Part shown: piece by piece, positions 14,207 through 43,215 of the stretch
Position numbering within the stretch: position 1 is the first letter of the stretch
Layout: each line of letters opens with the position of its first letter
Assembly: GCA_004297165.1 (NCBI GenBank)
Contig: SCUJ01000006.1
Location: forward strand, 1,052,464 to 1,116,463
DNA length: 64,000 nucleotides
Source of the DNA: Gammaproteobacteria bacterium
Lineage (GTDB): Bacteria; Pseudomonadota; Gammaproteobacteria; Eutrophobiales; Eutrophobiaceae
Direction of reading: 5' to 3'
Translations under genes and position numbers: made by a program
The notes under the pieces: model-generated
What the model was told of the DNA's origin: nothing
Databases searched by the model: none
The model's input: the letters and a program-made list of their open reading frames with translations, nothing else

Positions 14207-14623
14207 TCAAATCCCCACCACCGCAGCGCCTATGGCGAGTTTCTTTCCGTCCTGATTTTCAGCCTGCAATTCCAATCGGATGATGCGCGGACTGCCCTCT
14301 TCGATGGCCGTGATCCGGCCCGTGCAGACGATGCAGTCTCCGGGTCTGGAGGGTGCGAGCAGGCGGGTCTGAAATTCCAGAAGGGATTGCTGCGGGACCC
14401 AGTTCGTGAGCAGGCGGCCGAGATACGCCATGGTCAGCATGCCGGGCCCGATGACGTCATCGAGGCCGGCAACGTTTCTGGCGTAATCGCTGTCCACATG
14501 GATAGGATTGTAATCGCCGGAGGCGCCGCAGTAGAGGGCGAGCGTCAAACGGGTGAGCGGCGGCGCCCGGAATTCTGGAATCGCGTCGCCGACCTTGAAT
14601 TTGAATTCCTTGATCGTATTCAT
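14207..14623 (-). CDS. MaoC family dehydratase (hot-dog fold, R-specific enoyl-CoA hydratase-like subunit)
   Basis: MNTIKEFKFKVGD...DYNPIHVD... hydratase motif. The start is at an internal Met of the 193-aa track ORF and overlaps the upstream partner by 4 nt. Confidence 0.75.
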   Translation of the reverse strand: MNTIKEFKFKVGDAIPEFRAPPLTRLTLALYCGASGDYNPIHVDSDYARNVAGLDDVIGPGMLTMAYLGRLLTNWVPQQSLLEFQTRLLAPSRPGDCIVCTGRITAIEEGSPRIIRLELQAENQDGKKLAIGAAVVGI

Positions 14624-15072
14624 GACCCCGCGCGCCGTTGGACAACTATCGTCTGCTCCGCTTCGCAGACCACTCGCCCCTCGCCGTCCTTGAACTCGGT
14701 GACCACGACGATGAACTCCAGCGCGCCGTTTTTCCGCGCATAGATGTCGCTCACCCGTTTCTGACCGTACAGCGTATCTCCCGCGCACGCCGGGAGGCGA
14801 TAGCGGAAGCTTTGTTCGCCATGGAGGATCTCGGCGAAATCGAGGCCGAAGAGATGCAGAGTATCGAAGGGATCGGGGATATCCTTGCCGAGGCAGAAGG
14901 GATAGGTCGGCGGCATGGGCAGCGAGCGGTAGCCGGCGGTGCGCGCGGCGTCCTCATCGGTATAGATCGGATTCGTCTCGCCAATCGCCTTGGCAAACAA
15001 CCGCAATCGCCCCTTCTCCAGTTCCACCTGGAAGGGCGGGAAACGATGGCCGATCAGGGTTCGATCAAGCAT
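14620..15072 (-). CDS. MaoC-like N-terminal dehydratase subunit (hot-dog fold partner of the downstream MaoC protein; HadA/HadB-like two-subunit hydratase)
   Basis: 150 aa, FAS1-like dehydratase/MaoC_dehydrat_N features. Translationally coupled to 14207-14623. Confidence 0.7.
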   Translation of the reverse strand: MLDRTLIGHRFPPFQVELEKGRLRLFAKAIGETNPIYTDEDAARTAGYRSLPMPPTYPFCLGKDIPDPFDTLHLFGLDFAEILHGEQSFRYRLPACAGDTLYGQKRVSDIYARKNGALEFIVVVTEFKDGEGRVVCEAEQTIVVQRRAGS

Positions 15073-15087
15073 CGCGATCCCTGCCGG

Positions 15088-15456
15088 TCACCAGAGCCCG
15101 AGTTGCAGACGGGATTCCTCCGTCATGTACTCCGGTTTCCAGAACGGGTCCCAGACCAGTTCGAAGGCGACGTCCGTTACGCCGTCTACCGCGAGCAGTG
15201 CCCGGCGGATCATCCCCGGGATCTCTTCCGAGACGGGGCACGAAGGCGTCGTGAGCGTCATCACCACCTTGACCTTGCCGTCCTCCCGGATCCTGAGATC
15301 GTAGATGAGACCCATCTCGAAGATGCTCACGGGTATCTCGGGGTCGTACACCGTGCGCAGGGCCTCGACGATCTGTGGTTCAAAAGGAGAAGTCTCTGTC
15401 CCGACCATATAAGGCACGGGGCGGGCATCGGGATCGAAGGGCTCGAAGTCAGGCAT
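15088..15456 (-). CDS. DUF59/MIP18-family Fe-S cluster assembly protein (SufT/PaaD-like)
   Basis: 122 aa; ...IVEALRTVYDPEIPVSIFEMGLIY...TLTTPSCPVSEEI... matches the DUF59 signature. Confidence 0.65.
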   Translation of the reverse strand: MPDFEPFDPDARPVPYMVGTETSPFEPQIVEALRTVYDPEIPVSIFEMGLIYDLRIREDGKVKVVMTLTTPSCPVSEEIPGMIRRALLAVDGVTDVAFELVWDPFWKPEYMTEESRLQLGLW

Positions 15457-15518: not shown

Positions 15519-16013
15519 TTGATCATGGCATTACCTGGAGTCCGGTTATTCGACATGAACACAACGATTACAGGGGATTCGTTGCTGATCCGGGAGGCCC
15601 GCGCCGACGACCTCGCGGCCATCATCGGGATCGATGATCAGGTCACCAACATCGCCAAGCCCGAATACTGGCGGGATATGTTCACCCAATACGAACTTAA
15701 CCGGGAACACCGGTTTTTTTTGGTGGCGGACGAGTACGCGAAGGTCGTCGGCTTCATCATCGGCGAGGTCCGGGCCTGGGAATTCGGTTCCGCGCCCTGC
15801 GGCTGGGTCTTTGCCATCGGCGTCGATCCCGCCCGTCGCCAGTCCCAGGTCGCATCCAGAATGCTCGCCGCGCTCTGCGATCAGTTCGCGCAGGCCGGCG
15901 TCACCAAGGTGCGCACCATGACCTCCCGCCAGGATCACGTCCTGCTTTCCTTCTTCCGCAGCCAGGGGTTGATGGCCGGTCCGTATCAGCAACTGGAGAA
16001 GGACCTGTCATGA
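15519..16013 (+). CDS. GNAT family N-acetyltransferase
   Basis: Acetyl-CoA-binding core (VFAIGVDPARRQSQVASRMLAAL). The start may instead be the internal Met at 15555. Confidence 0.75.
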   Translation: MIMALPGVRLFDMNTTITGDSLLIREARADDLAAIIGIDDQVTNIAKPEYWRDMFTQYELNREHRFFLVADEYAKVVGFIIGEVRAWEFGSAPCGWVFAIGVDPARRQSQVASRMLAALCDQFAQAGVTKVRTMTSRQDHVLLSFFRSQGLMAGPYQQLEKDLS

Positions 16014-16486
16014 AACTTCAGCGCGCGACGCTGCTCGGCCTCTACGCCATCATTGAACTCGCCGATCAGCCGGATCTGCAACTCTCCCGCAGTGAGATCG
16101 CGCGCAAGTTCGATGTCTCCAGCAATCATTTGTCGAAGGTGATGCGCGAGCTCGGCAAGGCCGGGCTCGTGGAGGCCGTGCGCGGCGTCGGCGGCGGCTA
16201 TCGTTTCTGCGGCAACGCCAGACGCACCACGCTGCTCGATATCATCCAGATCTTCGAGGACTTCCGCTTCGACAGCCCGGACCAGCGGGAGCCGGGGATG
16301 GGTACCGAGATCGGCAAGGCCCTGGACCTCGTGCTTGGCGAGATCAACGAAAGCATAAACTCGACCTTGCGTTCCATCAGCCTCGCCACGATGTTGATGT
16401 TGAAAAATCGCCGCCAGGCTGTACCATCCGAACAGAGCACAGGTGATTCCTCGATTCAGTCATCCAGACCGGGACAATTATCATGA
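16010..16486 (+). CDS. Rrf2 family transcriptional regulator (BadM/IscR-like wHTH)
   Basis: MKLQRATLLGLYAIIELA...SRSEIARKFDVSSNHLSKVMRELGKAGLVEAVRGVGGGYRF is a canonical Rrf2 N-terminus. ATGA overlap with the flanking GNAT genes. Confidence 0.8.
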   Translation: MKLQRATLLGLYAIIELADQPDLQLSRSEIARKFDVSSNHLSKVMRELGKAGLVEAVRGVGGGYRFCGNARRTTLLDIIQIFEDFRFDSPDQREPGMGTEIGKALDLVLGEINESINSTLRSISLATMLMLKNRRQAVPSEQSTGDSSIQSSRPGQLS

Positions 16487-17484
16487 GTGAAGTAGACGCC
16501 CTTCCCTTAACCCGCCCCCTCACCGCCAGCGATTTCGATCAAGTGGTGGCCATCGACGCCAAGATCATCGGCCGATCCCGGCCCGGATTTTTCAGGAAAC
16601 GGCTCGCGGCTGCCCTCGCGGAGCCGGGCTATTTCATTTATATCGCCTGCGAGAGCGAAAACAAGTTGCAGGGCTTCCTGCTGGCGCGCCTGCTGGGCGG
16701 CGAATACGGGGAAGCGCAATCGATCGCCGTGCTGGACGCCCTCGGCGTCGCGCCGGTGAGCCAGGGGAAAGGCATCGGCACCCTGCTGATTCAGGAATTC
16801 GAACGGATCCTGCGGCGCAAACACATGCGCGAGATCCAGACGCAGACGGATTGGCGGCGTTTCAGTTTCCTGCGCTTTCTGTTCGCCAACGGCTTCCTGG
16901 TCGCGCCCGTGTATGTGCTGGAACGGGAGGTCAGCAATCTCGATACACGCCTGCGTGTCGATCCCGTGGCGAATCATGAAACCGCGAGCGGCGAACTCGA
17001 TTACAGCGATACCGGGACCCGCGGCGGCGAAACCCTGGCGCGCGATCGCGTGCCCTGCCGGAGCCTCGCAAGAGGCGATCTCGAAACGCTGATCCGCATC
17101 AACCGCAAGGTCACGGGCCTCGAGATGCGGGAGTTCTTTCAGCGCAAGGTGAAGGAGGTCCTGGACGAATCGGGCATCCGCGTCTCGCTCGTCGCGGAAG
17201 TGGACGGCCAGCCGGCTGGTTTCATCATGGCCCGGGTCGATTACGGCGAATTCGGCCGCACCGAGCCCGCCGCCGTGCTAGACGCCATCGCCGTCGATCC
17301 GGCCTATGGCCGGCAGCAGGTCGGCAGCGCCCTGCTATCGCAACTGCTTTCCAATCTCACGAGCCTCCGGCTCGAAGCCATCCGGACAGTGGTGCTGTCC
17401 AACCGCTTTGATCTCCTCAGTTTTCTGACGAAGAACGGATTCAAGCCGGGGCAGAGGCTGACCTTCTCCAAGCGGATTGATTGA
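16483..17484 (+). CDS. Tandem-GNAT (two acetyltransferase domains) protein
   Basis: 333 aa with two GNAT cores (…LDALGVAPVSQGKGIGTLLIQ… and …LDAIAVDPAYGRQQVGSALLSQ…). Confidence 0.75.
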   Translation: MSEVDALPLTRPLTASDFDQVVAIDAKIIGRSRPGFFRKRLAAALAEPGYFIYIACESENKLQGFLLARLLGGEYGEAQSIAVLDALGVAPVSQGKGIGTLLIQEFERILRRKHMREIQTQTDWRRFSFLRFLFANGFLVAPVYVLEREVSNLDTRLRVDPVANHETASGELDYSDTGTRGGETLARDRVPCRSLARGDLETLIRINRKVTGLEMREFFQRKVKEVLDESGIRVSLVAEVDGQPAGFIMARVDYGEFGRTEPAAVLDAIAVDPAYGRQQVGSALLSQLLSNLTSLRLEAIRTVVLSNRFDLLSFLTKNGFKPGQRLTFSKRID

Positions 17485-19406: not shown

Positions 19407-19422
19407 CCTGCTGAAGGATGCT

Positions 19423-20208: not shown

Positions 20209-20508
20209 ATGACCAAGAGAGACATTTCACCTATTCATCCCGGCGAGATCCTGCTGGAAGAATTTCTTTTGCCGATGGGTATTTCCCAATATCGCCTGGC
20301 AAAAGATATCAGCGTACCTCAACGTCGCATAAGTGAAATTGTCCAGGGAAAACGCTCGATTACTGCCGACACTGCCTTGCGCCTGGGTCGTTATTTCAGG
20401 ATGGAGGCGCAATTCTGGCTAAATCTCCAGTCTCGTTTCGATCTCCTGAATGCTGAAACAGAGCTGGCCAAACGGCTGGATAAAGAAGTCGTCCCACATG
20501 CTGCTTGA
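20209..20508 (+). CDS. higA: HigA-family addiction-module antitoxin (XRE-type HTH)
   Basis: 99 aa; ...GEILLEEFLLPMGISQYRLAKDISVPQRRISEIVQGKRSITADTALRLGRYF... is the characteristic HigA HTH. No RelE/HigB-like ORF nearby. Confidence 0.8.
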   Translation: MTKRDISPIHPGEILLEEFLLPMGISQYRLAKDISVPQRRISEIVQGKRSITADTALRLGRYFRMEAQFWLNLQSRFDLLNAETELAKRLDKEVVPHAA

Positions 20509-20609
20509 TAAAACGGATTATAACAATCCAACAACGATTTTTTCGGCGAGTGAAATCTGGATTTTGCTGCACCGCATCCTGGCTTGATTGTCGATATCCG
20601 CGTGGGCAC

Positions 20610-20640
20610 CAACAGCGTGCCCACCCTACGAAATCTGGAT
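20610..20640. repeat. REP-like palindromic element copy 2 (GCGTGGGCAC-CAACAGC-GTGCCCACCCTACG)
   Basis: Same family as 19377-19406. Lies between the convergent higA and fdx genes, overlapping the fdx stop. Confidence 0.6.
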
Positions 20641-20882
20641 TATCCGTGGATCCGATCGTATTTCGCTTGTAGATCTTCCTGGGTCTCCTCCCAGTCCGGA
20701 TTGGGGACGATGCAGGCGGAGGGACAGACGGCCCGGCATTGCGGTTCGTCCTCGGCGCCCACGCACTCGGTGCATTTCATCGGGTCTATCCGATAGGGTT
20801 CGCCGGCGGTGATTGCCTCGTTGGGACAGGGATCCACGCAGGCATCGCACATCGTGCAGTCGGCATTAATCATCAAGGCCAT
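20640..20882 (-). CDS. fdx: 2[4Fe-4S] ferredoxin (YfhL/Fdx-type, 80 aa), probable electron donor to benzoyl-CoA reductase
   Basis: Two CxxCxxC...CP cluster motifs (CTMCDACVDPCP; CTECVGAEDEPQCRAVCP). Immediately downstream of bcrD, as in the Thauera bcrCBAD-fdx arrangement (established knowledge). Confidence 0.8.
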   Translation of the reverse strand: MALMINADCTMCDACVDPCPNEAITAGEPYRIDPMKCTECVGAEDEPQCRAVCPSACIVPNPDWEETQEDLQAKYDRIHG

Positions 20883-20956
20883 TGGTCAGTCTCCACAATA
20901 ATTCTTTTTTCGGGTTGAAACAGCTTTTCATAATGACTCGCGTATTGCAATTCCTG

Positions 20957-21796
20957 TCACGCCGCCCGGTTCGCGGCCAACTCCTCCAGCCGCGTATGCC
21001 GGTACGCGCCCCAGAGCGCGGCGCCGATCGCGCCGGCATAGATCGAATCGGGATGGGACAGGACCTTGACGTCCATCTTCTGCGCCGTGACCGCCTCGTT
21101 GAGTGCGGCGATCAGGCCGACATCGGTGGCGAGCCCGCCGGTGGTCATGACAATCCCCTCCTTGACCTTGATCGATTTAAGTAGTTTGGCCATGCGATCC
21201 GCCATGGAGATGTGGATCCCCTTCAGGATGTTGCTCGCGCTGATGCCCCGCGAGACCATGTTGATGACATCGGTCTCGGCCAGCACCGCACAGATGCTGC
21301 TCACGGCCTCCGGGTCATCGCTCTTCAGCGAGAGCTCGCCGATCTCGTCCTGGGCGACGCCGAGATAACGGGCGATGTTCTCCAGGAACTGGCCGGAGCC
21401 CGAGGCGCACTGGCTGGTCATCTTGTAACCGAGCACCTTGCCGCGGGGATCAATCTTGATGGCCCGGCCGTGCAGCGCGCCGATATCCATCACCGACAGG
21501 GTCTGGTCGTTGAGATAGACCGCGCCGCGCGCATGCGTGGTCATGGAGTAGAAATGGCCGGTGCTGTAGGCGATGCTCTCGCCCTCGCCGGTCGTCGCGC
21601 AATAATCGATGGCCTTACGCTCGAGATGGTTGCGCTTGAGGACCTCGTCATAGGCCTGCTCAGTAAGCGCGAACGGGTCCTGTGTGCGGATCCGGTAGCA
21701 ACTCTTGTCCAGCCATTCGGTCTTGTCGCCCGTCGTTCTGAACAAGGCCAGCTTTACCGCGCTGGCGCCGATATCTATGCCCGCTGTCGTGACCAT
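20957..21796 (-). CDS. bcrD: Benzoyl-CoA reductase subunit D (BcrD/BadG; BadF/BadG/BcrA/BcrD ATPase family)
   Basis: Start MVTTAGIDIGASAVKLALFR is an acetate/sugar-kinase-fold ATPase N-terminus. About 280 aa as for Thauera BcrD. The start is 1 nt after the bcrA stop. The ORF track start at 22078 is an over-extension. Confidence 0.8.
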   Translation of the reverse strand: MVTTAGIDIGASAVKLALFRTTGDKTEWLDKSCYRIRTQDPFALTEQAYDEVLKRNHLERKAIDYCATTGEGESIAYSTGHFYSMTTHARGAVYLNDQTLSVMDIGALHGRAIKIDPRGKVLGYKMTSQCASGSGQFLENIARYLGVAQDEIGELSLKSDDPEAVSSICAVLAETDVINMVSRGISASNILKGIHISMADRMAKLLKSIKVKEGIVMTTGGLATDVGLIAALNEAVTAQKMDVKVLSHPDSIYAGAIGAALWGAYRHTRLEELAANRAA

Positions 21797-21797
21797 A

Positions 21798-23114
21798 TCA
21801 GTGCTCCATAACCGCCCGGTAGGCGAAGGTGGCGGCCCCGAGGGAGCCGGTGTAGATCGAATCGGGATTGATGTTGATGGTGACCTTGCCGTAGTTCTCA
21901 TCGACCAACTCACGCAAGGCGTTGACGGCGGCCTGGTTCTTGGCGACGCCGCCGGTGAAGGTGAACTGATCGGTGATGCCGCCGGAGCGGGCGATGATGG
22001 ACATGGCGCGCAGGATGATGGAGCGATGGAGACCGCCGAGGATATCCGCGCGGTCCTCGCCGAGCGCGAGCCGATCACGCAGCTCCGCGCCCGCGAACAC
22101 CGTGCAGGTGGAGTTTATCTTCACCTGTTTCTTGGCCTTTAGCGCCATCGGGCCCAGCTCGTGCAGACCGATCTTCATCTCGTCAGCGATGTAGCCAAGA
22201 TAGCGGCCGCAACCGGCGGCGCAGCGGTCGTTCATTTGAAAATTCTGCACGATGCCGTTCGCGTCCACCTGGATCGCCTTGGTATCCTGCCCGCCGATAT
22301 CCAGCACGGTGCGCGTGCCGTGGTACATGATATGCGCGCCGAGGCCGTGGCAGAGGATCTCGGAACGGATGTGCTCCTTGGAGAACGGCAGGCGGACGCG
22401 GCCGTAGCCGGTGCCGATCACATAACTCTCCTCCAGCTCGACGGCGAGCGCCCGATCCACCGCCTGCTGCATCGAGGCGCTGGACATCCTGTCCTCCCCA
22501 GCCTCCGTCAACAAATTCTCCAGTCCGCGGACGATCTTGCCCTTGAGATCCGCGGTCGGCGGGCGGTTTTCCACCTCGATGATGGCCTTGTCGTATACGG
22601 CGATGACCTGATCGAAGGGCAGATTCGCCTGCTTGCATACCTCGCCCGCGACGGCCAGATAAAAGGAACCGGCGATGTCGCGGAAGAAATCGGATTTGCG
22701 TTCGGCCCCAGGCTGGAACAATGCGCCGGCCTGGTCCGCGACCCGGCGGAAGATCTCGTCCAGCGCCTCGCGCACGGCCGCCTCCTTGTCCTTGAAGCGC
22801 GCCGCCGTGGCGAACTCGAGGCAGGTCCGGCGCAGGTCCTGCAACTGCTCCATGAACTGTTCGCGCCGGAAATTCCGCTCCAGATCGCGCAGGAAGGCAT
22901 CGATATCCACCATGCCGGATTGCGACTGTTCCAGCTCCCGGCGCAGGAGGGTGAACCGGGAGTCGATATAGGCCTCCTGCTTCGAGACCGCGGCGGCGGT
23001 GTCGTAGTTGGATCGGGAGTTGGTGATGCCGCGCCCCAGGACATCCTTGTTCTCGTCCATGAGGATGGCCTTGGTGGTGGTGGAGCCGAGGTCGATGCCG
23101 ATAAAACATTTCAT
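21798..23114 (-). CDS. bcrA: Benzoyl-CoA reductase subunit A (BcrA/BadF ATPase)
   Basis: Start [21 protein letters not shown]; about 439 aa. Second, non-identical ATPase subunit of a class I BCR. Confidence 0.8.
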
Positions 23115-23133
23115 CTCTGGTTCTCCTCTGCGG

Positions 23134-24432
23134 TCACGCGGCGCGCCGCTTCTGATCGACCATCTGGAAATAGCTCTCCAGCCGGTTCTTGACATTGGCG
23201 GCGGAGAAATAGCGCGGGTCCACGAGGTCGGTCTCCACGAACGCGGCTGGTTTCCCGGTGCGCTTCTCCACCTCGCGCATCATGAGCAACTGTCCCGCGG
23301 AGAAGCTGTTGCAGCTCTTGATCGAGTTGATCAGCAGGCCGTCCGCCTCATAGTCGTTGATGTAGTTCACGAGCATGTCGACCCGTTGCGGCAGGTTCAT
23401 GTTGGTGTAACATCCGAGGCAGTAATCGGCGAGCGATTCCAGCGGGTGTTCCGGGTCGTGCCGGAAGCCGAAATCGTAGACCCCGCCCACCTTCGTGTAG
23501 GAGCTGGCTACGACCACCGCGCCGTCGTCATAGAACATCTTCCAGAACTCGCGGAGATTGGTGTAATTCGGCGGGCCTTCGACCACGAGCCGGTATTTCT
23601 CCTCGCCCATGTTACCCTCCGGCGTGACCGGCCCGAGGCCGGCGTCGATGCGGGCCTGGATCTCCGCCCGCAGCAGCCGGTAATACTCCGTCGCATCCCG
23701 CGTCCCACGGAAGGCGGAGAAGATCGGGCCCACGTAATAGACACCGCCGAAATAGGCATCGATCGGCGAGGGCTTGTGGCGCGCGGTTTGCAGCACCCAG
23801 ACCAGGTCATCCTCCGCCCTGGCGGATTCCCGCAGGTATTCGCGCAGGCGATCGATGTCGAACTTCACGCCGCTGATCCGCTCCAGCGTCGGGATGACCT
23901 CCTCCTTCAACTGCTTGACCACATACTTGCGCATGTTCTCGGTGATCTTGCCGCCGCCCTGGTAGGGCACATGGAGCATTACGGTCGGGCACTTGTACTG
24001 GTGGCGCAGCAGCTCGAACCACTTGAGGAAGGTGAAACAACCGGTATACGACAAGAGCAGGATGTCGGGCTCCGGCAACCGTTCCCCGGTCGGGCCGATG
24101 TTGCCGTTGTAGACCATGCCGAGGTCGGTCTTCACATAGGTGCAGACGTCCTCGGAATGGCCGGCGCGCTCGGCGTCGAAGATGAAATTCCCCGACTTCT
24201 TGCGCATGCCCATCTGCAGGGCATTGATCTCGGGAAAGTTGCCGACCATGTCGAAGCACATCACCAGCTCGTTGATGTTGCCGGGAACGAAGGTGTAGGA
24301 GACCTTCTCGCCGGTCTGCGGCGCCCGCGCGAGACGCGTGAAATTGCCGGCGATCATCTCCTTCTGCTTCTCCATCGACTGATCCTTCTGGGCCTCGCGG
24401 AGATCGATCTTTTTCGTGGCGACTGTAGTCAT
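23134..24432 (-). CDS. bcrB: Benzoyl-CoA reductase subunit B (BcrB/BadE; 2-hydroxyglutaryl-CoA dehydratase D-component family)
   Basis: 432 aa, HgdB-like. Position and size match Thauera BcrB. Confidence 0.8.
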
Positions 24433-25610
24433 GCGTTTTCACCCCACAGTTTGATGGAATCGGCGAAGGTGCCCGCCTGTTCGCGGATCGGCTGCATCTG
24501 CCCGGAGTTCTCCGCGTATTTGAAAGCGATATAGGGGATGCCCGCGGCATTGAGGGCATCCTGGAGCATCGGGCGCTCCAGCAGGGCCGGGTCGCAGAAG
24601 CTCGGCGCGGCGAAGATAACGCCTTCCGCCCCGCTCTTGCGCACGGCCTCGACCAGGTACTGCCCCTTGTCGGCCTCGATCGGCTCGTAGGTGGCCGAGG
24701 TCTTGGTGGAATGATGCAGGAAGGCGCGCGCCAGGGCCTCGATCGGGTCCCCCGTCTCGCTGACCGGTTCCTGCATCCACCGGTTGATCAGCATGAAGTC
24801 GTCATCCACGACATAACAGCCGGCGAGTTCGAGCGACTTGATGAGATTGAGCGGCGGTTGCTCGCAGAACATCCCGCTGAGGACGATCTTGCAGTTGTCG
24901 CGGCGTGGACGATCCGCGCTCCTCGCGGCCTTGATATAGGATTCGACAAGGACATTGTGATCCTCCACGGGGAGCAGCATCCCGGCGCGGGAGAGCAGAT
25001 AGGCTTCTGTGGCCGGAACCTTCCAGGGTTCTGCGGCGCGCAAAATGTAAAGTTCCTTGATTAATTCGCGGTTGCGGTTGAAGAGCACAATGGATACGCG
25101 CAGCGCCGCATCCGTGATCTCGTTGCCGCTGAGATTTTCGAAATCGTGCCGCAGCTCCTGCAATTCATTGACATAGAATTCGCCGCCGACCCGATCGTCA
25201 TAATTCTGCGGCATGTCGTAGTAATGCGCGTACATGTCGGGGCGGATCAGTTGCAGCATCCCGGTGAGATTCCGGATGACGTCGCAGATGCTGGGGAAGA
25301 GCATGCCGTCGACAAAATCCAGCCGTTTAGTCAGGAACAATTCGATGGTCGAACGGGGTATCCGGCAGATGTAACTTTGATAATACGCGTCGCCCTGGAT
25401 GACCTCGATCTGATCGCCGCCGCCAAAGATGCCGAGCGGCAGCATGCCCGCGGCGTGGATCAACTCCCGCGGCACATAGATGGGCATGAAACCGACGACC
25501 TTGCGATCCGGTTCCGCCGCCTTCCATTCCCTTGCGGCGGTGAAGTGCAGGTCTTCAAACAGGGACTGGCAGCGCTGGATGATCTGGTCGGTGGTGGCCA
25601 TGTCTCTCAT
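24429..25610 (-). CDS. bcrC: Benzoyl-CoA reductase subunit C (BcrC/BadD; HgdA/HgdB-like)
   Basis: 393 aa. 4-nt overlap with bcrB. Order C-B-A-D as in Thauera aromatica. Confidence 0.8.
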   Translation of the reverse strand: MRDMATTDQIIQRCQSLFEDLHFTAAREWKAAEPDRKVVGFMPIYVPRELIHAAGMLPLGIFGGGDQIEVIQGDAYYQSYICRIPRSTIELFLTKRLDFVDGMLFPSICDVIRNLTGMLQLIRPDMYAHYYDMPQNYDDRVGGEFYVNELQELRHDFENLSGNEITDAALRVSIVLFNRNRELIKELYILRAAEPWKVPATEAYLLSRAGMLLPVEDHNVLVESYIKAARSADRPRRDNCKIVLSGMFCEQPPLNLIKSLELAGCYVVDDDFMLINRWMQEPVSETGDPIEALARAFLHHSTKTSATYEPIEADKGQYLVEAVRKSGAEGVIFAAPSFCDPALLERPMLQDALNAAGIPYIAFKYAENSGQMQPIREQAGTFADSIKLWGENA

Positions 25611-25680
25611 CTCTTAATGAATCTCTTCGTTATTGTTCCGCTTTGCGGTATAACAGGCAATCAACAAAGTAGAGCAAGTT

Positions 25681-25695
25681 TAATTCCAGGAATTA
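25681..25695. promoter_or_regulatory. Perfect palindrome TAATTCC-A-GGAATTA in the AT-rich divergent bcrC/korA promoter region; candidate operator
   Basis: Seen directly in the 177-bp intergenic region, which also contains several TATAAT-like runs (ggtataataatactataatact). Confidence 0.3.
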
Positions 25696-25787
25696 CATGG
25701 GATTGTCAATAATGGTATAATAATACTATAATACTACTTAGTCAATCAGGACCAACAATCCCCGATCCGATCCGGAGTTTATACATT

Positions 25788-27536
25788 GTGAATTCGAACA
25801 GTCAGAGTCATTTAGTCTCCACTGGCGCCCTTTCCGTCGCCGTGGTCGGCAGTGGCGGGGCCGGGGCCATCACGACCGGTACATTATTACTCGAGGCCGC
25901 GTCACGACAGGGGCATTACGGCATTCTCACCCGCACCGTCGGTCCCCAGATCCGCGGGGGCGAGGCCGCCGCCCTGGTGCGCCTCGGCACGCAGCCCATC
26001 GATTGCATCGGCGACGGCTTCGACATCCTGCTCGCCATGGACTGGAATAATTTCGATCGCCTTGCCGCCGAGATCCCGCTCTCGACGAAAAGCTTGATCA
26101 TCGCCGACCCTGAACAGGGCGATGTACCCGAGGTCGTCCGCGACACCGGGGCCGTTATCTGCAACCTGCCCATCGGCGAGCTGGCGAAGGCCGTTAACAA
26201 GGGCCGGCCCAACATGCTCGCGTTCGGCATTATCGCCGAGTTGCTGGACCTGCAAACCGCATCGGTCGGGGCCGTGCTTGAAAAGCAACTCGCGAAGAAG
26301 GGCGAACAGGCCTTGCAGAGCAGCCTGGAAACCGTGCGTGCGGGCCGCGCCGCTGCAACCGGACTCGCCAAGCGAACCCTGGCGGGTCAAGGCTCGCGGC
26401 AGGACGGCCGCTGGTTGATCACAGGCAATCATGCCTGCGGCTACGGGGCGTTGCGGGGCGGGATCCGCTTCGTGGCCGCCTATCCCATCACCCCGGCGAC
26501 CGAGGTCCTGGAATGGCTGTCCTCCGGGCTTATGAAGTCCGGCGGGCGGCTGGTTCAGGCGGAGGATGAATTGGCCTCCATTAACATGATCGTCGGCGCC
26601 TCCTACGGGGGCATCCCATCTCTGACCGCGACCTCCGGCCCCGGCTTGTCTCTCATGATGGAAAGCCTGGGGCTTGCGGTAGCCGCCGAGATCCCGCTAG
26701 TCGTGATCGATGTGATGCGCGTCGGGCCTTCCACGGGCATCGCCACCAAGGCCGAGCAGAGCGACCTGAACATCGCCGTCTACGGATTCCATGGCGACGC
26801 CCCGCACGTGGTCGTGGCGCCGAACTCGGTCGGTGATTGCGTCGCAACCACGCAGTGGGCCGTGCAACTGGCGGAGTCCATGCAGGCGCCGGTGATTGTC
26901 CTCACCGATCAGTACATGGGACAGACCAAATCCATCATCGATCGACCTGCCTTGGCGGAGGCCGGGGCCGGGCGGCTCACGTGCGACAACCCCGCGCCCG
27001 ATTACGCGCGTTATGCCAATACCGAGAGCGGCATCTCGCCCATGACGATCCCTGGAACTCAGGGCGGACAATACACCGCGGACGGTCTGGAACATTCGGT
27101 CAAGGGCATCCCCTCGACGCGGGCGGAAGATCACGAACAGCAGATGGAGAAGCGCCGGCGCAAGATCCATGACTTCGACTACGGCGAGCGGTGGGCGGAT
27201 GTGGAGGGTGCGGGTCGGCACGCCATACTGACCTGGGGCTCGACCACCGGGGCGGTGCGCGAGGCGCTCGATCAATTGCGGCGCACTGGCGTGGATGACA
27301 TCAAACTCATATCGCTCCGCCTGATCACGCCGGCACAGCCGGAGAAATTCGCGGAAGCGATCGCGGGCGTCGACCGGGTCCTGGTCATCGAACAGAATCA
27401 TTCCGGGCAACTGCGGCATTTTCTGCGCGCCCACTACGACCTGCCCAAGGACATCGAATTTTACAACCGGGCCGGCCCCATCCTGTTCCGGCCGGGCGAG
27501 ATTGGCGACTGGATCAAACAATGGAGGTCGGCATGA
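25788..27536 (+). CDS. korA: 2-oxoglutarate:ferredoxin oxidoreductase alpha subunit (fused gamma/alpha)
   Basis: 582 aa. N-terminal catalytic gamma-like domain (AVVGSGGAGAITTG) then the alpha pyruvate-flavodoxin-oxidoreductase core. Paired with a TPP-binding beta subunit. Adjacent to the bcr genes, as KorAB regenerates reduced ferredoxin in Thauera. Confidence 0.85.
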   Translation: MNSNSQSHLVSTGALSVAVVGSGGAGAITTGTLLLEAASRQGHYGILTRTVGPQIRGGEAAALVRLGTQPIDCIGDGFDILLAMDWNNFDRLAAEIPLSTKSLIIADPEQGDVPEVVRDTGAVICNLPIGELAKAVNKGRPNMLAFGIIAELLDLQTASVGAVLEKQLAKKGEQALQSSLETVRAGRAAATGLAKRTLAGQGSRQDGRWLITGNHACGYGALRGGIRFVAAYPITPATEVLEWLSSGLMKSGGRLVQAEDELASINMIVGASYGGIPSLTATSGPGLSLMMESLGLAVAAEIPLVVIDVMRVGPSTGIATKAEQSDLNIAVYGFHGDAPHVVVAPNSVGDCVATTQWAVQLAESMQAPVIVLTDQYMGQTKSIIDRPALAEAGAGRLTCDNPAPDYARYANTESGISPMTIPGTQGGQYTADGLEHSVKGIPSTRAEDHEQQMEKRRRKIHDFDYGERWADVEGAGRHAILTWGSTTGAVREALDQLRRTGVDDIKLISLRLITPAQPEKFAEAIAGVDRVLVIEQNHSGQLRHFLRAHYDLPKDIEFYNRAGPILFRPGEIGDWIKQWRSA

Positions 27537-28372
27537 ACGAGACTGCGGTTGCGCTCAACAAACCGACCCCGGCGGATTACCGCTCGGGGATCAAGCCGAT
27601 CTGGTGCCCCGGTTGCGGGGATTACTCCGTGCTGCTCGAGATCACCAAGGCGCTGGCCGCGCTCGAACTCCCGGCGGCGGAGGTCGCCATCGTCTCCGGG
27701 ATCGGTTGTTCCTCGCGGATCCCGGCCTACAGCAGTTGCTACGGGTTTCATGGGGTGCACGGGCGCGCCCTGCCGGTGGCGACCGGCCTCAAGGTCGCGC
27801 GTCCGGACCTTACCGTGATCGCGACCGGCGGCGACGGCGACGGATTCTCCATCGGCGGCAATCATTTTCTCCATGCCTGCCGGCGCAATGTCGATATCAC
27901 TTATATCGTCATGGACAACCAGGTCTATGGCATGACCAAGGGCCAGGCCTCGCCCACCACCGATCCCGACTGGGACAGCGTCCTGACGCCGGGCGGCACC
28001 GGGATACGCCCCTTTCAGCCGCTGGTGATCGCACTCGCCTCGGGCGCGAATTTCGTCGCCCGCGGCTTTGCCGGCGATCCGGCGGGCACGACCGAGATGA
28101 TCATCGAGGGGATCAAGCACCCCGGATTCTCCTTCATCCAGATCCTGAGCCCCTGCGCCACCTTCCGCCCGGATCAGCGGGAATGGCGCAACCTGGTCCG
28201 GCCGGCCCCGGTCCCCTTCACCACCGATCCGTCCCGCGCCGCCAACCGCATCATGACCGATGACGGCTTCAATCTCGGGATCCTCTATCGCGGCGATCGC
28301 CCGCCCTATGAATCAGGACGGAAGTCCGAGCCCAGGGATATTGATGCGATCGCGGAGGAATTCGTCCTATGA
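27533..28372 (+). CDS. korB: 2-oxoglutarate:ferredoxin oxidoreductase beta subunit (TPP-binding)
   Basis: MNETAVALNKPTPADYRSGIKPIWCPGCGDYSV... and the GDGDGFSIGGNH TPP motif. ATGA overlap with korA. Confidence 0.85.
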   Translation: MNETAVALNKPTPADYRSGIKPIWCPGCGDYSVLLEITKALAALELPAAEVAIVSGIGCSSRIPAYSSCYGFHGVHGRALPVATGLKVARPDLTVIATGGDGDGFSIGGNHFLHACRRNVDITYIVMDNQVYGMTKGQASPTTDPDWDSVLTPGGTGIRPFQPLVIALASGANFVARGFAGDPAGTTEMIIEGIKHPGFSFIQILSPCATFRPDQREWRNLVRPAPVPFTTDPSRAANRIMTDDGFNLGILYRGDRPPYESGRKSEPRDIDAIAEEFVL

Positions 28373-28890
28373 CTGCCGGGCCTCGACCAGCGAATATCGC
28401 TGAGTTACTGACGCATGCACTCGCATTGGAGATTGAGGCCAGCGAGCGCTACGCGGATCTCGCCGAGCAGATGAAGTCGCATAACAACCTTCGCATTGCG
28501 AAGTTGTTCGGCAAGATGGCGGACATCGAGAAACTCCATGTGGACCACATCCGCAAGATGATCGAACGGCATGGGGTCAAACTGTCAGAACCAGCGAATT
28601 ATTACTGGACCTCTCCCGAAGGACCGGAAACCACAGACCCGCTCGACCTGCATTACCTCATGACCCCGCGCCAGGCGTTGGAACTCGCACGACACAATGA
28701 AGCGCGGGCGCGCGATTATTATGCCCATCTCGCCACGGATGCGCAGGATGGAGAAACCCGCCGCATGGCGCAAGAGTTGGCGGCGGAGGAAGAAGAGCAT
28801 GTCGCCCTGATCGACGCCTGGCTCGCCAAGGTCCCGGAGACCGACGCGGACTGGGACGAGGACGATGACCCGCCGTTCTTGCAGGATTAG
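28369..28890 (+). CDS. Ferritin-like/rubrerythrin-family diiron protein (no rubredoxin domain)
   Basis: Two E...ExxH diiron half-sites (EIEASERY...EKLHVDH; ELARHNE...EEEEHVAL). 4-nt overlap with korB. Confidence 0.7.
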   Translation: MTAGPRPANIAELLTHALALEIEASERYADLAEQMKSHNNLRIAKLFGKMADIEKLHVDHIRKMIERHGVKLSEPANYYWTSPEGPETTDPLDLHYLMTPRQALELARHNEARARDYYAHLATDAQDGETRRMAQELAAEEEEHVALIDAWLAKVPETDADWDEDDDPPFLQD

Positions 28891-28896
28891 GGAAAC

Positions 28897-28993
28897 TCTG
28901 AATAAGTACTCACCGTTCGGGCTGAGCTTGTCGAAGCCCTTGATTTTACGAGTACGCATTTCGACAGGCTCAATGCGAACGGACTTATTCAGA
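28897..28993. other. Extended imperfect inverted repeat (about 18-bp bulged outer stem enclosing smaller hairpins) filling the convergent intergenic region; candidate bidirectional terminator or small structured RNA
   Basis: TCTGAATAAGT(actca)CCGTTCG at 28897-28919 pairs with CGAACGG-ACTTATTCAGA at 28976-28993. Inner GGGCT...AGCCC hairpin. Confidence 0.3.
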
Positions 28994-29004
28994 ATTTCCT
29001 TAAG

Positions 29005-29553
29005 TTAGCCCTGTATCGCAGCGGGCATGACCACGTTGATTATCTTTTCAACGTCCGGCCGATCGGCGGGCCCCCGACCAACATGATGCAGCCGGACGAT
29101 CCCGCCGGGGTCGATCAGGACATCGCCGCCGCGTTGCATCACATCGGCGCCGGCCCGTCTCAGGCCCTGTCCTTTCCGTAATTCGCGCACATAGGCCAGC
29201 CAACTCGCGGGTCCCCAGACATCCATGAACGAGGCCCGCAACATGCCATAGGCCCGATAAAGCCCCCGCGTTTCGTCGATGAGCAGCGGCCACTCGATCC
29301 CGGTCTCCTCGATATAGGCACGGCAGAGGAATGGTCGGTCAAACGTAACCACGGCAACGCGCACATCCAGTGCCTCCAGATCCGCCTGCCGTTCGCGCAA
29401 CTGCGCGAGATGCCCACGGCAGGGCAGTCAACCGAGATGCCGGTGAAAGACGAGCAGGAGCCAGTGGCCGGAGAAATTCTGCAGGCAGCAGATCCTGCCC
29501 TGGAAGTCAGGCAAGGAAAATGGCGCAGCGGGCCGGTCGGTTTGTAACTGCAT
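29005..29553 (-). CDS. Peroxiredoxin-like (AhpC/TSA_2/Redoxin-family) thiol-disulfide oxidoreductase, probable selenoprotein with U-x-x-C motif (in-frame TGA at 29428-29430)
   Basis: Two track ORFs (29428-29715 and 29005-29400, both minus) are in the same frame, separated only by a TGA. Joined protein: MQLQTDRPAAPFSLPDFQGRICCLQNFSGHWLLLVFHRHLG-U-LPCRGHLAQLRERQADLEALDVRVAVVTFD... The TGA sits exactly where Prx-like proteins have the first Cys of CxxC, and a stem-loop follows it. Confidence 0.6.
29386..29422 (-). promoter_or_regulatory. SECIS-like stem-loop beginning 6 nt downstream of the in-frame UGA (7-bp lower stem, internal loop, 6-bp GC-rich upper stem, AGUU apical loop)
   Basis: Minus-strand RNA: UGA cugcc-CUGCCGU-gggcauc-UCGCGC-AGUU-GCGCGA-ACGGCAG. 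Apical loop about 26-29 nt after the UGA, as in bacterial SECIS elements. Confidence 0.5.
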
Positions 29554-37906: not shown

Positions 37907-37909
37907 CGT

Positions 37910-43211: not shown

Positions 43212-43215
43212 TTGG

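What the first reader, a model, noticed from the sequence alone, without database searches (positions are those of the whole stretch)
20640..29553. Thauera-type benzoyl-CoA reductase module (bcrCBAD-fdx) with its reductant-regenerating korAB and an attached peroxide-defence pair
Four minus-strand genes of sizes 393/432/439/280 aa in the order C-B-A-D, followed by an 80-aa 2[4Fe-4S] ferredoxin, reproduce the class I ATP-dependent benzoyl-CoA reductase locus of Thauera aromatica. Divergently transcribed from the same AT-rich promoter region are korA/korB (2-oxoglutarate:ferredoxin oxidoreductase, the known ferredoxin re-reducing system for BCR), then a ferritin/rubrerythrin-like protein and the Prx-like selenoprotein. 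Physical coupling of an extremely O2-labile enzyme with a diiron protein and a Sec peroxiredoxin suggests a dedicated oxidative-protection module. The downstream ring-hydrolysis genes (dch/had/oah) and the benzoate-CoA ligase are not in the window.
Basis: partly seen in the sequence, partly recalled or inferred. Interest (0 to 1): 0.5.

Follow-up and report, generated by a model that had tools for sequence, protein, structure and literature searches.

The report
Benzoyl-CoA reductase module with KorAB partner
This is an ordinary, intact gene set for the ATP-driven enzyme that lets bacteria break the benzene ring without oxygen. Its electron-supply genes carry a conserved but unstudied di-iron protein gene, while the neighbouring selenoprotein gene is a separate unit with no general link to the enzyme.

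Summary
The genes are real. bcrC-B-A-D (393/432/438/279 aa) and an 80-aa 2[4Fe-4S] ferredoxin lie on the minus strand. All four subunits score above NCBI's equivalog cut-offs for Thauera/Rhodopseudomonas-type class I benzoyl-CoA reductase.

korA-korB is transcribed divergently from a 177-bp, 36% GC region with back-to-back promoter-like sites.

The "peroxide-defence pair" splits in two:
- **Rubrerythrin-like gene (173 aa):** it is the translationally coupled third gene of the kor operon (ATGA overlap in 83 of 93 loci). It follows korB in 52 of 63 and 27 of 33 related loci, and also where no bcr is nearby. It is therefore a KorAB partner, not BCR-specific. Only a structural-genomics structure exists (2OH3).
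- **Selenoprotein (SelL-related, U-x-x-C):** it is on the opposite strand, behind a 115-nt hairpin. It recurs only in the closest relative found in another lineage and in none of 160 other loci.

Unlike about 80% of related loci, had-oah-dch are missing between korA and bcrC. No lower-pathway or ligase gene was found in the window.

A BadL/BadM-like GNAT–Rrf2–GNAT trio belongs to the module but is separated from fdx by a low-GC island.

Verdict: a new member of a known kind; modest interest.

The parts
20640..20882 (-). fdx: 80-aa 2[4Fe-4S] ferredoxin (YfhL/Alvin type), the presumed electron donor to BCR
   Evidence: NF033683 scores 100.7 bits against a cut-off of 86. The Cys motifs CxxCxxCxxxCP and CxxC(x8)CxxxCP are visible in the translation. 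It is present after bcrD in 63 of 80 related loci.
20957..21796 (-). bcrD: ATPase-module subunit (279 aa)
   Evidence: TIGR02261 scores 440 bits (cut-off 313) and covers profile positions 3-262 of 262. Pfam PF01869 also matches.
21798..23114 (-). bcrA: ATPase-module subunit (438 aa)
   Evidence: TIGR02259 scores 711 bits (cut-off 578) and covers profile positions 1-432 of 432.
23134..24432 (-). bcrB: reductase-module subunit (432 aa; a 413-aa start is also possible)
   Evidence: TIGR02260 scores 818 bits (cut-off 487). bzdO scores 68 against 449, and HadB 174 against 750. The closest solved chains are 9g87 MbdO (E 6e-62) and 8s02 BzdO (E 1.5e-16).
24429..25610 (-). bcrC: reductase-module subunit (393 aa; homologues mostly 390 aa). 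Its stop overlaps the bcrB start.
   Evidence: TIGR02263 scores 660 bits (cut-off 421). The best database relative is 94% identical, and the best named ones are 'benzoyl-CoA reductase subunit C'.
25611..25787 (.). Divergent promoter region. The bcr promoter has -35 TTGACT and -10 TATTAT (25745-25717, minus strand). The kor promoter has TTGTCA-18-TATAAT (25703-25732, plus strand).
   Evidence: GC is 0.36. The promoter-like sites match 10/12 and 11/12 positions. The block TTGACT...GTATTATAGTATTATTATACC is conserved in L177 and L002, while the rest of the spacer does not align.
25788..27536 (+). korA: alpha subunit (fused gamma and alpha domains) of a two-subunit 2-oxoacid:ferredoxin oxidoreductase
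   Evidence: TIGR03710 scores 558 bits (cut-off 483). Pfam domains POR, POR_N and PFOR_II match. PDB 6n2n_A matches at E 7e-106 over the full length. It is divergent from bcrC in 64 of 80 loci.
27521..28372 (+). korB: TPP-binding beta subunit (283 aa)
   Evidence: PF02775 matches. TIGR02177 scores 259.7 bits, just under its 261.9 cut-off, and only profile positions 2-191 of 286 are matched. It is 61-80% identical to the korB of bcr loci.
28369..28890 (+). Rubrerythrin-like di-iron four-helix-bundle protein (173 aa, no rubredoxin domain); third gene of the kor operon
   Evidence: PF02915 scores 53 bits. Residues E21, E54, H57, E111, E141 and H144, the HYLMTP motif and the C-terminal DxDPPxLQ are conserved in 52 orthologues. 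PDB 2oh3_A matches at E 2e-37. Its start overlaps the korB stop (ATGA) in 83 of 93 loci. It follows korB where no bcr is near.
28887..29004 (.). Imperfect palindrome of about 115 nt between the convergent ferritin-like and Sec genes; likely a bidirectional terminator or insulator
   Evidence: Folding energy is -60.3 kcal/mol against -25.8 +/- 3.3 for shuffles, z = -10.5. It occurs once in the window.
29005..29553 (-). SelL-related thioredoxin-fold redox protein (182 aa) with in-frame UGA (29428-29430) in a G-U-L-P-C-R motif; a separate, convergent gene
   Evidence: NF040769 scores 188.6 bits (cut-off 120) with U replaced by C. Full-length homologues have Cys, or a 'W' read from TGA, at that column. 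Most database homologues are truncated to 125-135 aa. A hairpin follows the UGA, at -28.2 kcal/mol but z of only -1.2.
15519..17484 (+). BadL/BadM-like regulatory trio: GNAT (15519-16013), Rrf2 regulator (16010-16486) and a two-domain GNAT (16483-17484)
   Evidence: PF00583 and PF02082 (87.5 bits) match, as does TIGR00738. The same trio lies directly after fdx in L177 at 72-83% identity. GNAT homologues occur in 58-59 and Rrf2 in 25 of 81 bcr loci. The BadL/BadM precedent is PMC6191541.
17485..20639 (.). Low-GC, strain-variable island between the GNAT genes and fdx. It holds a DUF4145 protein (18312-19094), a 229-aa ORF whose DNA matches the 3' part of a large NACHT/AAA gene in L082 (19423-20112) and a HigA-like HTH protein (20209-20508).
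   Evidence: GC of 18-20 kb is 0.51, against about 0.60. DUF4145 matches and HigA TIGR02607 matches. A 99%-identical strain (L082) stops aligning left of window position 19411 and carries a 1522-aa NACHT/AAA gene there.
14207..15456 (-). MaoC/hotdog hydratase pair (14207-14623, 14620-15072) and a DUF59/FeS_assembly_P protein (15088-15456). This block is shared with the closest relative's bcr locus; its role is unknown.
   Evidence: Pfam PF01575 and PF01883 match, and there are HadA-like hits. The three proteins are 59-82% identical to genes in the same arrangement in L177. They are almost absent from the other 80 loci.

Best explanation
Window 20640-28890 encodes a self-contained unit for ATP-dependent reduction of the benzene ring. 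The regulatory trio at 15519-17484 belongs with it.

**Catalysis.** BcrB and BcrC form the substrate-reducing module (HGD-D fold). BcrA and BcrD form the ATP-hydrolysing electron-activating module. The 2[4Fe-4S] ferredoxin is the electron donor. These roles are inferred from orthology to the Thauera and Rhodopseudomonas enzymes.

**Electron supply.** The divergently transcribed korAB encodes a two-subunit 2-oxoglutarate:ferredoxin oxidoreductase that re-reduces the ferredoxin. This is inferred from conserved synteny, from the Thauera precedent and from similarity to PDB 6n2n.

**The di-iron protein.** A third gene, translationally coupled to korB, encodes a rubrerythrin-like di-iron protein. 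It is a conserved partner of this KorAB type whether or not bcr is present. Its most likely role is to remove O2 or H2O2, or otherwise protect or repair the O2-labile oxidoreductase, using low-potential electrons generated on the spot. That role is inferred and not shown.

**Regulation.** Expression is probably controlled at a conserved promoter/operator by an Rrf2 (BadM-like) repressor whose effector is made by neighbouring GNAT (BadL-like) acetyltransferases. This is inferred by analogy.

**The selenoprotein.** The SelL-related selenoprotein is an independent convergent gene. It is kept next to the kor operon only in this narrow clade.

**Missing steps.** The ring-hydration and ring-cleavage genes are not linked here and must lie elsewhere, if the organism has them.
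For: - All four Bcr subunits exceed their equivalog cut-offs, with full-length profile coverage.
- Gene order and companions recur in 80 genome loci: korA in 64, korB in 63, fdx in 63, the ferritin-like gene in 52. In 80 oah-centred metagenome loci, korB occurs in 33 and the ferritin-like gene in 27; three of the six exceptions are cut by a contig end.
- The korB stop and ferritin-like start overlap by 4 nt in 83 of 93 loci.
- Six di-iron ligands are invariant, and a solved homologue exists, 2oh3.
- The korAB-ferritin trio occurs without bcr beside the dnaA/rpmH region and elsewhere.
- KorA matches 6n2n at E 7e-106.
- The promoter block is conserved across three lineages.
- The GNAT-Rrf2-GNAT trio lies directly next to fdx in L177 and recurs widely. 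The BadL/BadM mechanism is published (PMC6191541).
- KorAB as the Thauera BCR reductant system, and korAB inside R. palustris benzoate clusters, are described in PMC9973337.
Against: - No dch/had/oah, BadH/I/K-like or ligase gene lies in the 64-kb window or the 10 kb beyond its right end. In 62-69 of 80 related loci had-oah-dch sit between korA and bcrC.
- The substrate range of this BCR is not established by sequence.
- KorB is marginally below its subfamily cut-off, and its C-terminal third does not match the model.
- No experiment or paper links the ferritin-like protein to KorAB. Its protective role is a guess from its fold and position.
- About 10 loci, mostly Rhodobacteraceae, have korAB next to bcr without the ferritin-like gene. 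It is therefore not indispensable.
Confidence: 0.75

Rival explanations
1. The di-iron protein and the Sec-containing Prx-like protein form a dedicated two-protein peroxide-defence module attached to, and co-regulated with, the O2-labile BCR.
For: - Both are redox proteins placed beside the kor-bcr genes.
- The Sec gene is again convergent with the ferritin-like gene in L177/L178 (BcrC 84% identical, TGA conserved), although the outer flanks differ there.
Against: - The Sec gene is on the opposite strand behind a -60 kcal/mol hairpin.
- It is absent from 80 + 80 other loci, including the next relative L002.
- SelL-like homologues elsewhere sit in unrelated contexts.
- The ferritin-like gene tracks korAB even without bcr.
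- The Sec protein scores 21.8 bits against a 270-bit cut-off on the PrxU model. It has a CxxC-type motif, not a peroxiredoxin active-site motif.
Confidence: 0.1
2. The reductase is a paralogue specialised for a substituted benzoyl-CoA (methyl-, hydroxy-, amino- or halo-), or feeds a non-Thauera lower pathway, rather than being a plain benzoyl-CoA reductase of the Thauera pathway.
For: - The window and its three closest relatives (L177 85%, L002 77%, L003 76% mean BcrABC identity) form the only group lacking the had-oah-dch block between korA and bcrC.
- L177 and L002 instead carry a BadH-like SDR (242-261 bits, below the 431 cut-off), crotonases and acyl-CoA dehydrogenases.
- A MaoC hydratase pair is kept next to the cluster in the window and in L177.
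- Dedicated 4-methylbenzoyl-CoA reductases of this type exist (PMC4268860).
Against: - All four subunits pass the benzoyl-CoA reductase equivalog cut-offs by wide margins.
- They are 65-89% identical to enzymes encoded beside canonical had/oah/dch.
- L003, in the same group, has oah directly upstream of bcrC.
- L177 carries a regulator that passes the 'anaerobic benzoate catabolism' model PRK08154.
- Class I BCRs generally accept several analogues anyway (my own knowledge).
Confidence: 0.15
3. The four genes encode a 2-hydroxyacyl-CoA dehydratase with its activator, not an aromatic-ring reductase.
For: The folds are shared: PF06050 HGD-D and PF01869. There are weak hits to HadB/HadC, at 174 and 168 bits.
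Against: - There are two distinct ATPase subunits of 438 and 279 aa, each passing its BcrA or BcrD equivalog model.
- HadB/HadC scores are far below their 750/700 cut-offs.
- Synteny is with fdx and korAB and, in relatives, with had-oah-dch.
Confidence: 0.01

Closest known systems
Thauera aromatica bcrCBAD-fdx cluster with korAB (class I, Bcr-type benzoyl-CoA reductase and its 2-oxoglutarate:ferredoxin oxidoreductase)
   Same: Same four subunit families in the same C-B-A-D-fdx order. All pass the Bcr/Bad-type equivalog models. A two-subunit KorAB sits next to the cluster as the ferredoxin-reducing system.
   Different: The had-oah-dch genes are missing here. In 62-69 of 80 related loci, for example Azoarcus taiwanensis L049, they lie between korA and bcrC. 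Here korA abuts bcrC across a 177-bp promoter region. A 3-kb low-GC island separates fdx from the conserved GNAT/Rrf2 genes.
Rhodopseudomonas palustris badDEFG-badB with the BadM (Rrf2) / BadL (GNAT) control system
   Same: Same reductase type; the TIGR02259-63 models cover both. An Rrf2 regulator flanked by GNAT acetyltransferases lies beside the reductase genes (PMC6191541).
   Different: Orthology of the window's Rrf2 and GNAT proteins to BadM and BadL was not tested. There are three GNAT domains here, one single and one tandem. No badA ligase lies in the operon. korAB is present here, whereas most R. palustris strains use AadN instead (PMC9973337).
PDB 2OH3, 'COG1633 uncharacterized conserved protein' (structural-genomics entry; from memory, Magnetospirillum magnetotacticum)
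   Same: It aligns over residues 9-169 at E 2e-37. The E/ExxH/E/ExxH ligands, the HNN and HYLMTP motifs and the acidic C-terminal tail are shared.
   Different: No function or partner has been assigned to 2OH3. The link to korB (ATGA overlap in 83 of 93 loci) is shown only by the comparisons made here.
Rubrerythrin / erythrin-type peroxidases
   Same: Four-helix-bundle di-iron site. Pfam PF02915 scores above its gathering score.
   Different: There is no rubredoxin domain. The protein scores 24.9 bits against a 200-bit cut-off on the rubrerythrin equivalog. It carries family-specific motifs (HYLMTP, C-terminal DPPxLQ). Peroxidase activity is untested.
Magnetococcus-type two-subunit 2-oxoglutarate:ferredoxin oxidoreductase (PDB 6N2N/6N2O; identity of the entry from memory)
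   Same: KorA aligns end to end at E 7e-106. The alpha (gamma+alpha fused) / beta architecture is the same.
   Different: Substrate specificity is not established here. The KorB C-terminal third diverges from the PorB_KorB model.
SelL-related redox proteins (NF040769), Prx-like thioredoxin-fold selenoproteins
   Same: Scores 188.6 bits against a 120-bit cut-off. The U/C-x-x-C motif sits in the same column as in the Cys homologues.
   Different: It is not a canonical peroxiredoxin. No conserved link to bcr or kor exists outside the immediate clade.

Membership tests
Class I ATP-dependent benzoyl-CoA reductase, Bcr/Bad (Thauera/Rhodopseudomonas) type | Four different subunits: two HGD-D-fold (B, C) and two BcrAD_BadFG ATPase-fold (A, D) | tested here: met
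   PF06050 matches twice and PF01869 twice. The ORFs are intact and cover the profiles end to end.
Class I ATP-dependent benzoyl-CoA reductase, Bcr/Bad (Thauera/Rhodopseudomonas) type | Each subunit scores above the curated equivalog cut-off of the Bcr-type model and below that of the Bzd-type model | tested here: met
   Subunits A, B, C and D score 711, 818, 660 and 440 bits against cut-offs of 578, 487, 421 and 313. The bzd models score 68-139 bits against cut-offs of 380-454.
Class I ATP-dependent benzoyl-CoA reductase, Bcr/Bad (Thauera/Rhodopseudomonas) type | Operon order C-B-A-D followed by a small 2[4Fe-4S] ferredoxin | tested here: met
   The same order is seen in 63-78 of 80 related loci.
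Class I ATP-dependent benzoyl-CoA reductase, Bcr/Bad (Thauera/Rhodopseudomonas) type | ATP-dependent two-electron reduction of benzoyl-CoA to the cyclic dienoyl-CoA | not testable with these tools
   Needs an enzyme assay. The preferred substrate (benzoyl-CoA or a substituted analogue) cannot be read from sequence here.
Thauera-type benzoyl-CoA pathway locus | dch, had and oah linked to bcr | tested here: not met
   tblastn of L049 Dch/Had/Oah, which pass TIGR03189/03201/03200, finds nothing in the window. Nothing is found in the 10 kb beyond its right end either. Presence elsewhere in the genome could not be tested.
Two-subunit 2-oxoglutarate:ferredoxin oxidoreductase (KorAB) | Alpha subunit with fused POR (gamma) and POR_N domains, plus a TPP-binding beta subunit | tested here: met
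   TIGR03710 scores 558 bits against 483. 6n2n matches at E 7e-106.
Two-subunit 2-oxoglutarate:ferredoxin oxidoreductase (KorAB) | Beta subunit above its curated cut-off | tested here: inconclusive
   TIGR02177 scores 259.7 bits against 261.9. NF008820 scores 282.8 against 402. Only the N-terminal two thirds match the model.
Two-subunit 2-oxoglutarate:ferredoxin oxidoreductase (KorAB) | Specificity for 2-oxoglutarate and reduction of the BCR ferredoxin | not testable with these tools
   Inferred from synteny and from the Thauera precedent cited in PMC9973337.
Rubrerythrin (canonical) | Di-iron four-helix bundle with E, ExxH, E, ExxH ligands | tested here: met
   E21, E54/H57, E111 and E141/H144 are invariant in 52 orthologues. 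PF02915 scores 53 bits.
Rubrerythrin (canonical) | C-terminal rubredoxin-like FeCys4 domain; equivalog score | tested here: not met
   The protein is 173 aa with no Cys-rich tail. NF045767 scores 24.9 bits against 200. It is an erythrin-like or COG1633 protein, not a rubrerythrin proper.
SelL-related redox selenoprotein | Family model score, and an in-frame UGA aligned with the redox Cys of homologues | tested here: met
   NF040769 scores 188.6 bits against 120. The alignment column holds U, C or 'W' within G-x-L-P-C-R. The TGA is conserved in L177.
SelL-related redox selenoprotein | Bacterial SECIS hairpin just 3' of the UGA, and Sec machinery in the genome | tested here: inconclusive
   A hairpin of -28.2 kcal/mol with an AGUU loop is present, but z is only -1.2 in this GC-rich context. 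No tRNA gene of any kind is in the window.
Peroxiredoxin (AhpC/Prx) | Score above the cut-off of a Prx equivalog model | tested here: not met
   BCP scores 28.5 bits against 140, AhpC 25.5 against 272 and PrxU 21.8 against 270. The motif is UxxC/CxxC.
BadM/BadL-type control of BCR genes | Rrf2 repressor gene paired with a GNAT gene beside the reductase operon | tested here: met
   The same trio abuts fdx in L177.
BadM/BadL-type control of BCR genes | Orthology to R. palustris BadM/BadL; acetamidobenzoate as effector | not tested
   No R. palustris sequences were compared. The mechanism is taken from PMC6191541.

The most novel reading that the evidence does not exclude
The 173-aa rubrerythrin-like protein is a dedicated third component of two-subunit 2-oxoglutarate:ferredoxin oxidoreductases. 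It would be an in-operon O2/H2O2 scavenger or cluster-protecting partner that docks through its conserved acidic DPPxLQ tail and draws on the low-potential electrons KorAB makes. That would help explain how facultative anaerobes run KGOR and class I BCR at oxic/anoxic interfaces. In this clade it may additionally have recruited a Sec-containing SelL-type thiol oxidoreductase.
Probability: 0.3. Interest if true: 0.55.

Novelty: new member of a known kind. Interest (0 to 1): 0.3.

Why it matters
The reductase, ferredoxin and KorAB arrangement is textbook anaerobic aromatic metabolism, so the locus mainly marks an uncultured gammaproteobacterium as a probable anaerobic aromatic degrader.

The useful by-product is comparative. 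A di-iron protein known only as a structural-genomics structure is translationally coupled to korB in most loci examined, with or without bcr. That gives a concrete, testable candidate for how an O2-labile ferredoxin-reducing enzyme is protected or serviced.

The work also shows that the apparent selenoprotein link is local to one clade. This prevents over-interpreting it.

Tried and rejected
1. An exact-match look-up of BcrB found only a 2.9-kb metagenome contig. The ferritin-like protein located the source population: JGI 3300048071 and related samples, and an NCBI gammaproteobacterial MAG contig of 1.78 Mb. Only +/-10 kb could be read.
2. I tried to find the organism's own Oah with a metagenome scan using an Oah alignment. 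Whether the lower pathway lies elsewhere remains untested.
3. One look-up was wasted on an ORF with an over-long start.
4. Walking 10 kb beyond the right end of the window found branched-chain oxoacid dehydrogenase, acyl-CoA dehydrogenase and thiolase genes, but no aromatic-pathway genes.
5. An Rfam scan of the window found nothing. ARAGORN found no tRNA or tRNA-Sec.
6. Literature searches for the ferritin-like protein with korAB, BCR or 2OH3 found nothing relevant. The Carmona 2009 review was not held.
7. The 2-hydroxyacyl-CoA dehydratase reading was rejected on scores.
8. An apparent 345-aa fusion ORF in L049 that matched window 27877-28887 is an alternative-frame artefact over korB plus the real ferritin-like gene.
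9. No short repeats were found in the promoter spacer.
10. A neighbour-joining tree timed out. A ranking by identity replaced it.

Full report
**What is there**

- Minus strand: fdx 20640-20882 (80 aa), bcrD 20957-21796 (279 aa), bcrA 21798-23114 (438 aa), bcrB 23134-24432 (432 aa) and bcrC 24429-25610 (393 aa).
- Plus strand: korA 25788-27536, korB 27521-28372 and a ferritin-like gene 28369-28890.
- The Prx-like gene (29005-29553) has an in-frame TGA at 29428-29430. It lies on the minus strand, so it converges on the ferritin-like gene and does not continue the kor unit.

The bcrC-korA spacer is 177 bp at 36% GC, in a window averaging about 60%. It carries back-to-back sigma-70-like sites with 11/12 and 10/12 matches.

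**Identity of the reductase**

All four subunits exceed NCBIfam's equivalog cut-offs for the Bcr/Bad-type enzyme, with end-to-end profile coverage.
- BcrA scores 711 bits against a cut-off of 578.
- BcrB scores 818 against 487.
- BcrC scores 660 against 421.
- BcrD scores 440 against 313.

The Azoarcus bzd-type models (68-139 bits against cut-offs of 380-454) and the 2-hydroxyisocaproyl-CoA dehydratase models (168-174 against 700-750) fall far short. The Pfam domains are those expected.

The ferredoxin passes the YfhL-type di-cluster model. The closest solved chains to BcrB are class I reductase subunits, MbdO 9g87 and BzdO 8s02.

It is not met. "Thauera-type class I BCR" is supported.

**Source and relatives**

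- The nearest BcrC in the 5.8-billion-protein set is 94% identical. The named relatives are "benzoyl-CoA reductase subunit C" from gammaproteobacterial MAGs.
- The best GTDB species representative is only 77% identical (L002).
- An exact copy of the ferritin-like protein is annotated "MAG: rubrerythrin [Gammaproteobacteria bacterium]" on a 1.78-Mb contig.
- Strains about 99% identical occur in several JGI metagenomes, L082-L085.

**Comparative anatomy**

I fetched 80 genome loci centred on bcrC and compared them with the window's proteins.
- bcrB, bcrA and bcrD are present in 78, 73 and 72 loci, and fdx in 63.
- korA and korB are present in 64 and 63 loci, in nearly all of them on the strand opposite to bcrC and upstream of it.
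- The ferritin-like gene follows korB in 52 loci.
- The Prx-like gene and the downstream TPP enzyme are present in none.

In most loci about 3.2 kb separates korA from bcrC. In Azoarcus taiwanensis (L049) that space holds had, oah and dch, each passing its equivalog model. These three genes are present in 62, 69 and 65 of the 80 loci.

The window has no match to any of them. The window ORFs scanned carry no crotonase or AMP-ligase domain. The 10 kb beyond the right end also holds no aromatic-pathway gene.

The compact korA<>bcrC arrangement is shared by the window's three closest relatives: L177 (85% mean BcrABC identity), L002 (77%) and L003 (76%, with oah only). All others are 65-73% identical.

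Those relatives carry other CoA-ester genes nearby. They include a BadH-like SDR below its cut-off, crotonases, acyl-CoA dehydrogenases and a regulator that passes the "anaerobic benzoate catabolism" model. None of these is in the window.

Whether the lower pathway exists elsewhere in the genome is untested.

**The ferritin-like gene belongs to korAB**

- An alignment of 52 orthologues shows invariant E21, E54, H57, E111, E141 and H144. This is the E/ExxH/E/ExxH di-iron set. It also shows family-specific HNN, HYLMTP and C-terminal DxDPPxLQ motifs.
- Its start codon overlaps the korB stop (ATGA) in the window and in 83 of 93 loci.
- In an independent oah-centred metagenome sample it follows korB in 27 of 33 loci. 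Three of the six exceptions are cut by a contig end.
- When I sampled distant homologues of the ferritin-like protein itself, the korA-korB-ferritin trio appeared with no bcr nearby. In three loci it lies beside the mnmE-yidC-rnpA-rpmH-dnaA region, and in one next to unrelated genes.

The gene is therefore a partner of this KorAB type, not of BCR as such.

Other facts about the protein:
- It has a solved homologue, 2OH3 (E 2e-37, ligands and tail conserved), annotated only as an uncharacterized COG1633 protein.
- An exhaustive search finds 329 cluster representatives (at 50% identity) at E <= 1e-10.
- It lacks a rubredoxin domain and fails the rubrerythrin equivalog.
- I found no paper connecting it with korAB or BCR.
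- KorA itself aligns end to end with the two-subunit oxidoreductase of 6n2n. KorAB as the ferredoxin-reducing system for BCR is established for Thauera (cited in PMC9973337).

A protective, O2/H2O2-consuming or cluster-servicing role is the most economical inference. It is not shown.

**The selenoprotein**

The gene is probably a real selenoprotein gene.
- With U replaced by C it scores 188.6 bits (cut-off 120) on the SelL-related redox model.
- Full-length homologues carry Cys at that column of a G-x-L-P-C-R motif, or a "W" that must come from TGA read as Trp.
- Most database homologues are 125-135 aa, that is, truncated after the TGA.
- The TGA is conserved in L177.
- A hairpin follows the UGA, but it is not exceptional for this GC content.

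Its link to the BCR module is weak.
- It is on the opposite strand.
- The 114-nt gap folds into a hairpin of -60.3 kcal/mol, z = -10.5.
- It is absent from 160 other loci.
- Homologues in Myxococcales and Phycisphaerae have unrelated neighbours.
- It fails every peroxiredoxin equivalog.

Only its retention next to the ferritin-like gene in L177/L178, where the outer flanks differ, hints at more than chance.

At 15519-17484 lie a GNAT, an Rrf2 regulator and a two-domain GNAT. In L177 the same trio (72-83% identical) directly follows fdx. GNAT homologues occur in 58-59 and Rrf2 in 25 of 81 loci.

This mirrors the R. palustris BadL/BadM system. There a GNAT makes acetamidobenzoates that release an Rrf2 repressor from the reductase promoter (PMC6191541).

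The bcr promoter block, TTGACT...GTATTATAGTATTATTATACC, is conserved in the window, L177 and L002, while the rest of the spacer is not. That is consistent with an operator overlapping the promoter.

In the window the trio is separated from fdx by a 3-kb low-GC island containing a DUF4145 protein and a HigA-like protein. The 99%-identical strain L082 stops aligning to the left of window position 19411 and carries a 1522-aa NACHT/AAA gene there.

**Verdict**

- The BCR, fdx and korAB interpretation is correct and already known as a type.
- The "peroxide-defence pair" is half right. The di-iron gene is a conserved, uncharacterized member of the kor operon. The selenoprotein is a clade-local neighbour.
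- The locus is atypical in lacking the linked had-oah-dch genes.
- Novelty: new member of a known kind. Interest is modest and rests mainly on the korAB-associated di-iron protein.

Noticed in passing
window 17485-20639: A low-GC (about 0.51) island lies between the conserved GNAT genes and fdx. It holds an ORF with no family hit (17567-18034), a DUF4145 protein (18312-19094), a 229-aa ORF with no family hit (19423-20112) and a HigA-like HTH protein with no HigB. The 99%-identical strain L082 stops aligning left of window 19411 and has a 1522-aa NACHT/AAA gene there, whose 3' part aligns with the 229-aa ORF. This may be a strain-variable hotspot, possibly defence-related.
   Followed up: partly
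window 28887-29004: An imperfect palindrome of about 115 nt fills the whole gap between the convergent ferritin-like and Sec genes (-60.3 kcal/mol, z = -10.5). It occurs once in the window. It is not present in L177, where the gap is only 28 bp.
   Followed up: partly
window 25717-25745; L177 about 9740-9790; L002 about 9870-9920: The bcr promoter and a 21-nt AT-rich block (GTATTATAGTATTATTATACC) are conserved across three lineages, while the surrounding spacer is not alignable. It is a candidate operator for the Rrf2 regulator.
   Followed up: partly
window 14207-15456: A heterodimer-like MaoC/hotdog hydratase pair and a DUF59/FeS_assembly_P protein are kept next to the bcr regulatory genes in both the window and L177. 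They are almost absent from 80 other bcr loci. The pair could be an alternative hydratase for this clade, which lacks a linked dch.
   Followed up: partly
L177 18709-21173; L002 1093-4774 and 15050-16207: The closest relatives carry several genes beside bcr instead of had-oah-dch. These are a regulator passing the 'anaerobic benzoate catabolism' model (PRK08154), BadH-like SDRs (below cut-off), crotonases, acyl-CoA dehydrogenases and a glutaryl-CoA-dehydrogenase-like gene. This may indicate a different lower pathway in this clade.
   Followed up: partly
proteins P0243, P0247, P0256, P0261: Database homologues of the SelL-like protein show 'W' exactly where the window has UGA, and most others are truncated to 125-135 aa. 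Public gene calls systematically misread this selenoprotein family.
   Followed up: partly
window 27521-28372: KorB matches only positions 2-191 of the 286-position PorB_KorB model and falls 2 bits under the cut-off. The C-terminal third of this KorB lineage is divergent, and it is the part that abuts the coupled ferritin-like gene.
   Followed up: no
window 37364-56001: A complete chemotaxis cluster (CheW, CheR, CheW, two MCPs, CheA-CheY hybrid, CheB) is followed by three large response-regulator/GAF/PAS proteins: 46613-49588 with GGDEF and EAL domains (Pfam), and 49589-52906 (HisKA/HATPase) and 52903-56001 (GGDEF-EAL) per the Pfam annotation of the aligned locus L095. It appears to be a che-like pathway wired to c-di-GMP signalling.
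   Followed up: no
window 5490-9086 (minus): A 1198-aa ORF has no NCBIfam hit and only a C-terminal Golvesin_C domain. It lies between an ABC ATPase gene and an RND efflux operon.
   Followed up: no
window 10237-12372: A 711-aa protein has CoA_binding_2 and Succ_CoA_lig domains, like an ADP-forming acyl-CoA synthetase, and an unassigned N-terminal region of about 200 aa. It is followed by a PQQ-dependent dehydrogenase. Its relation to the bcr module is unknown.
   Followed up: no
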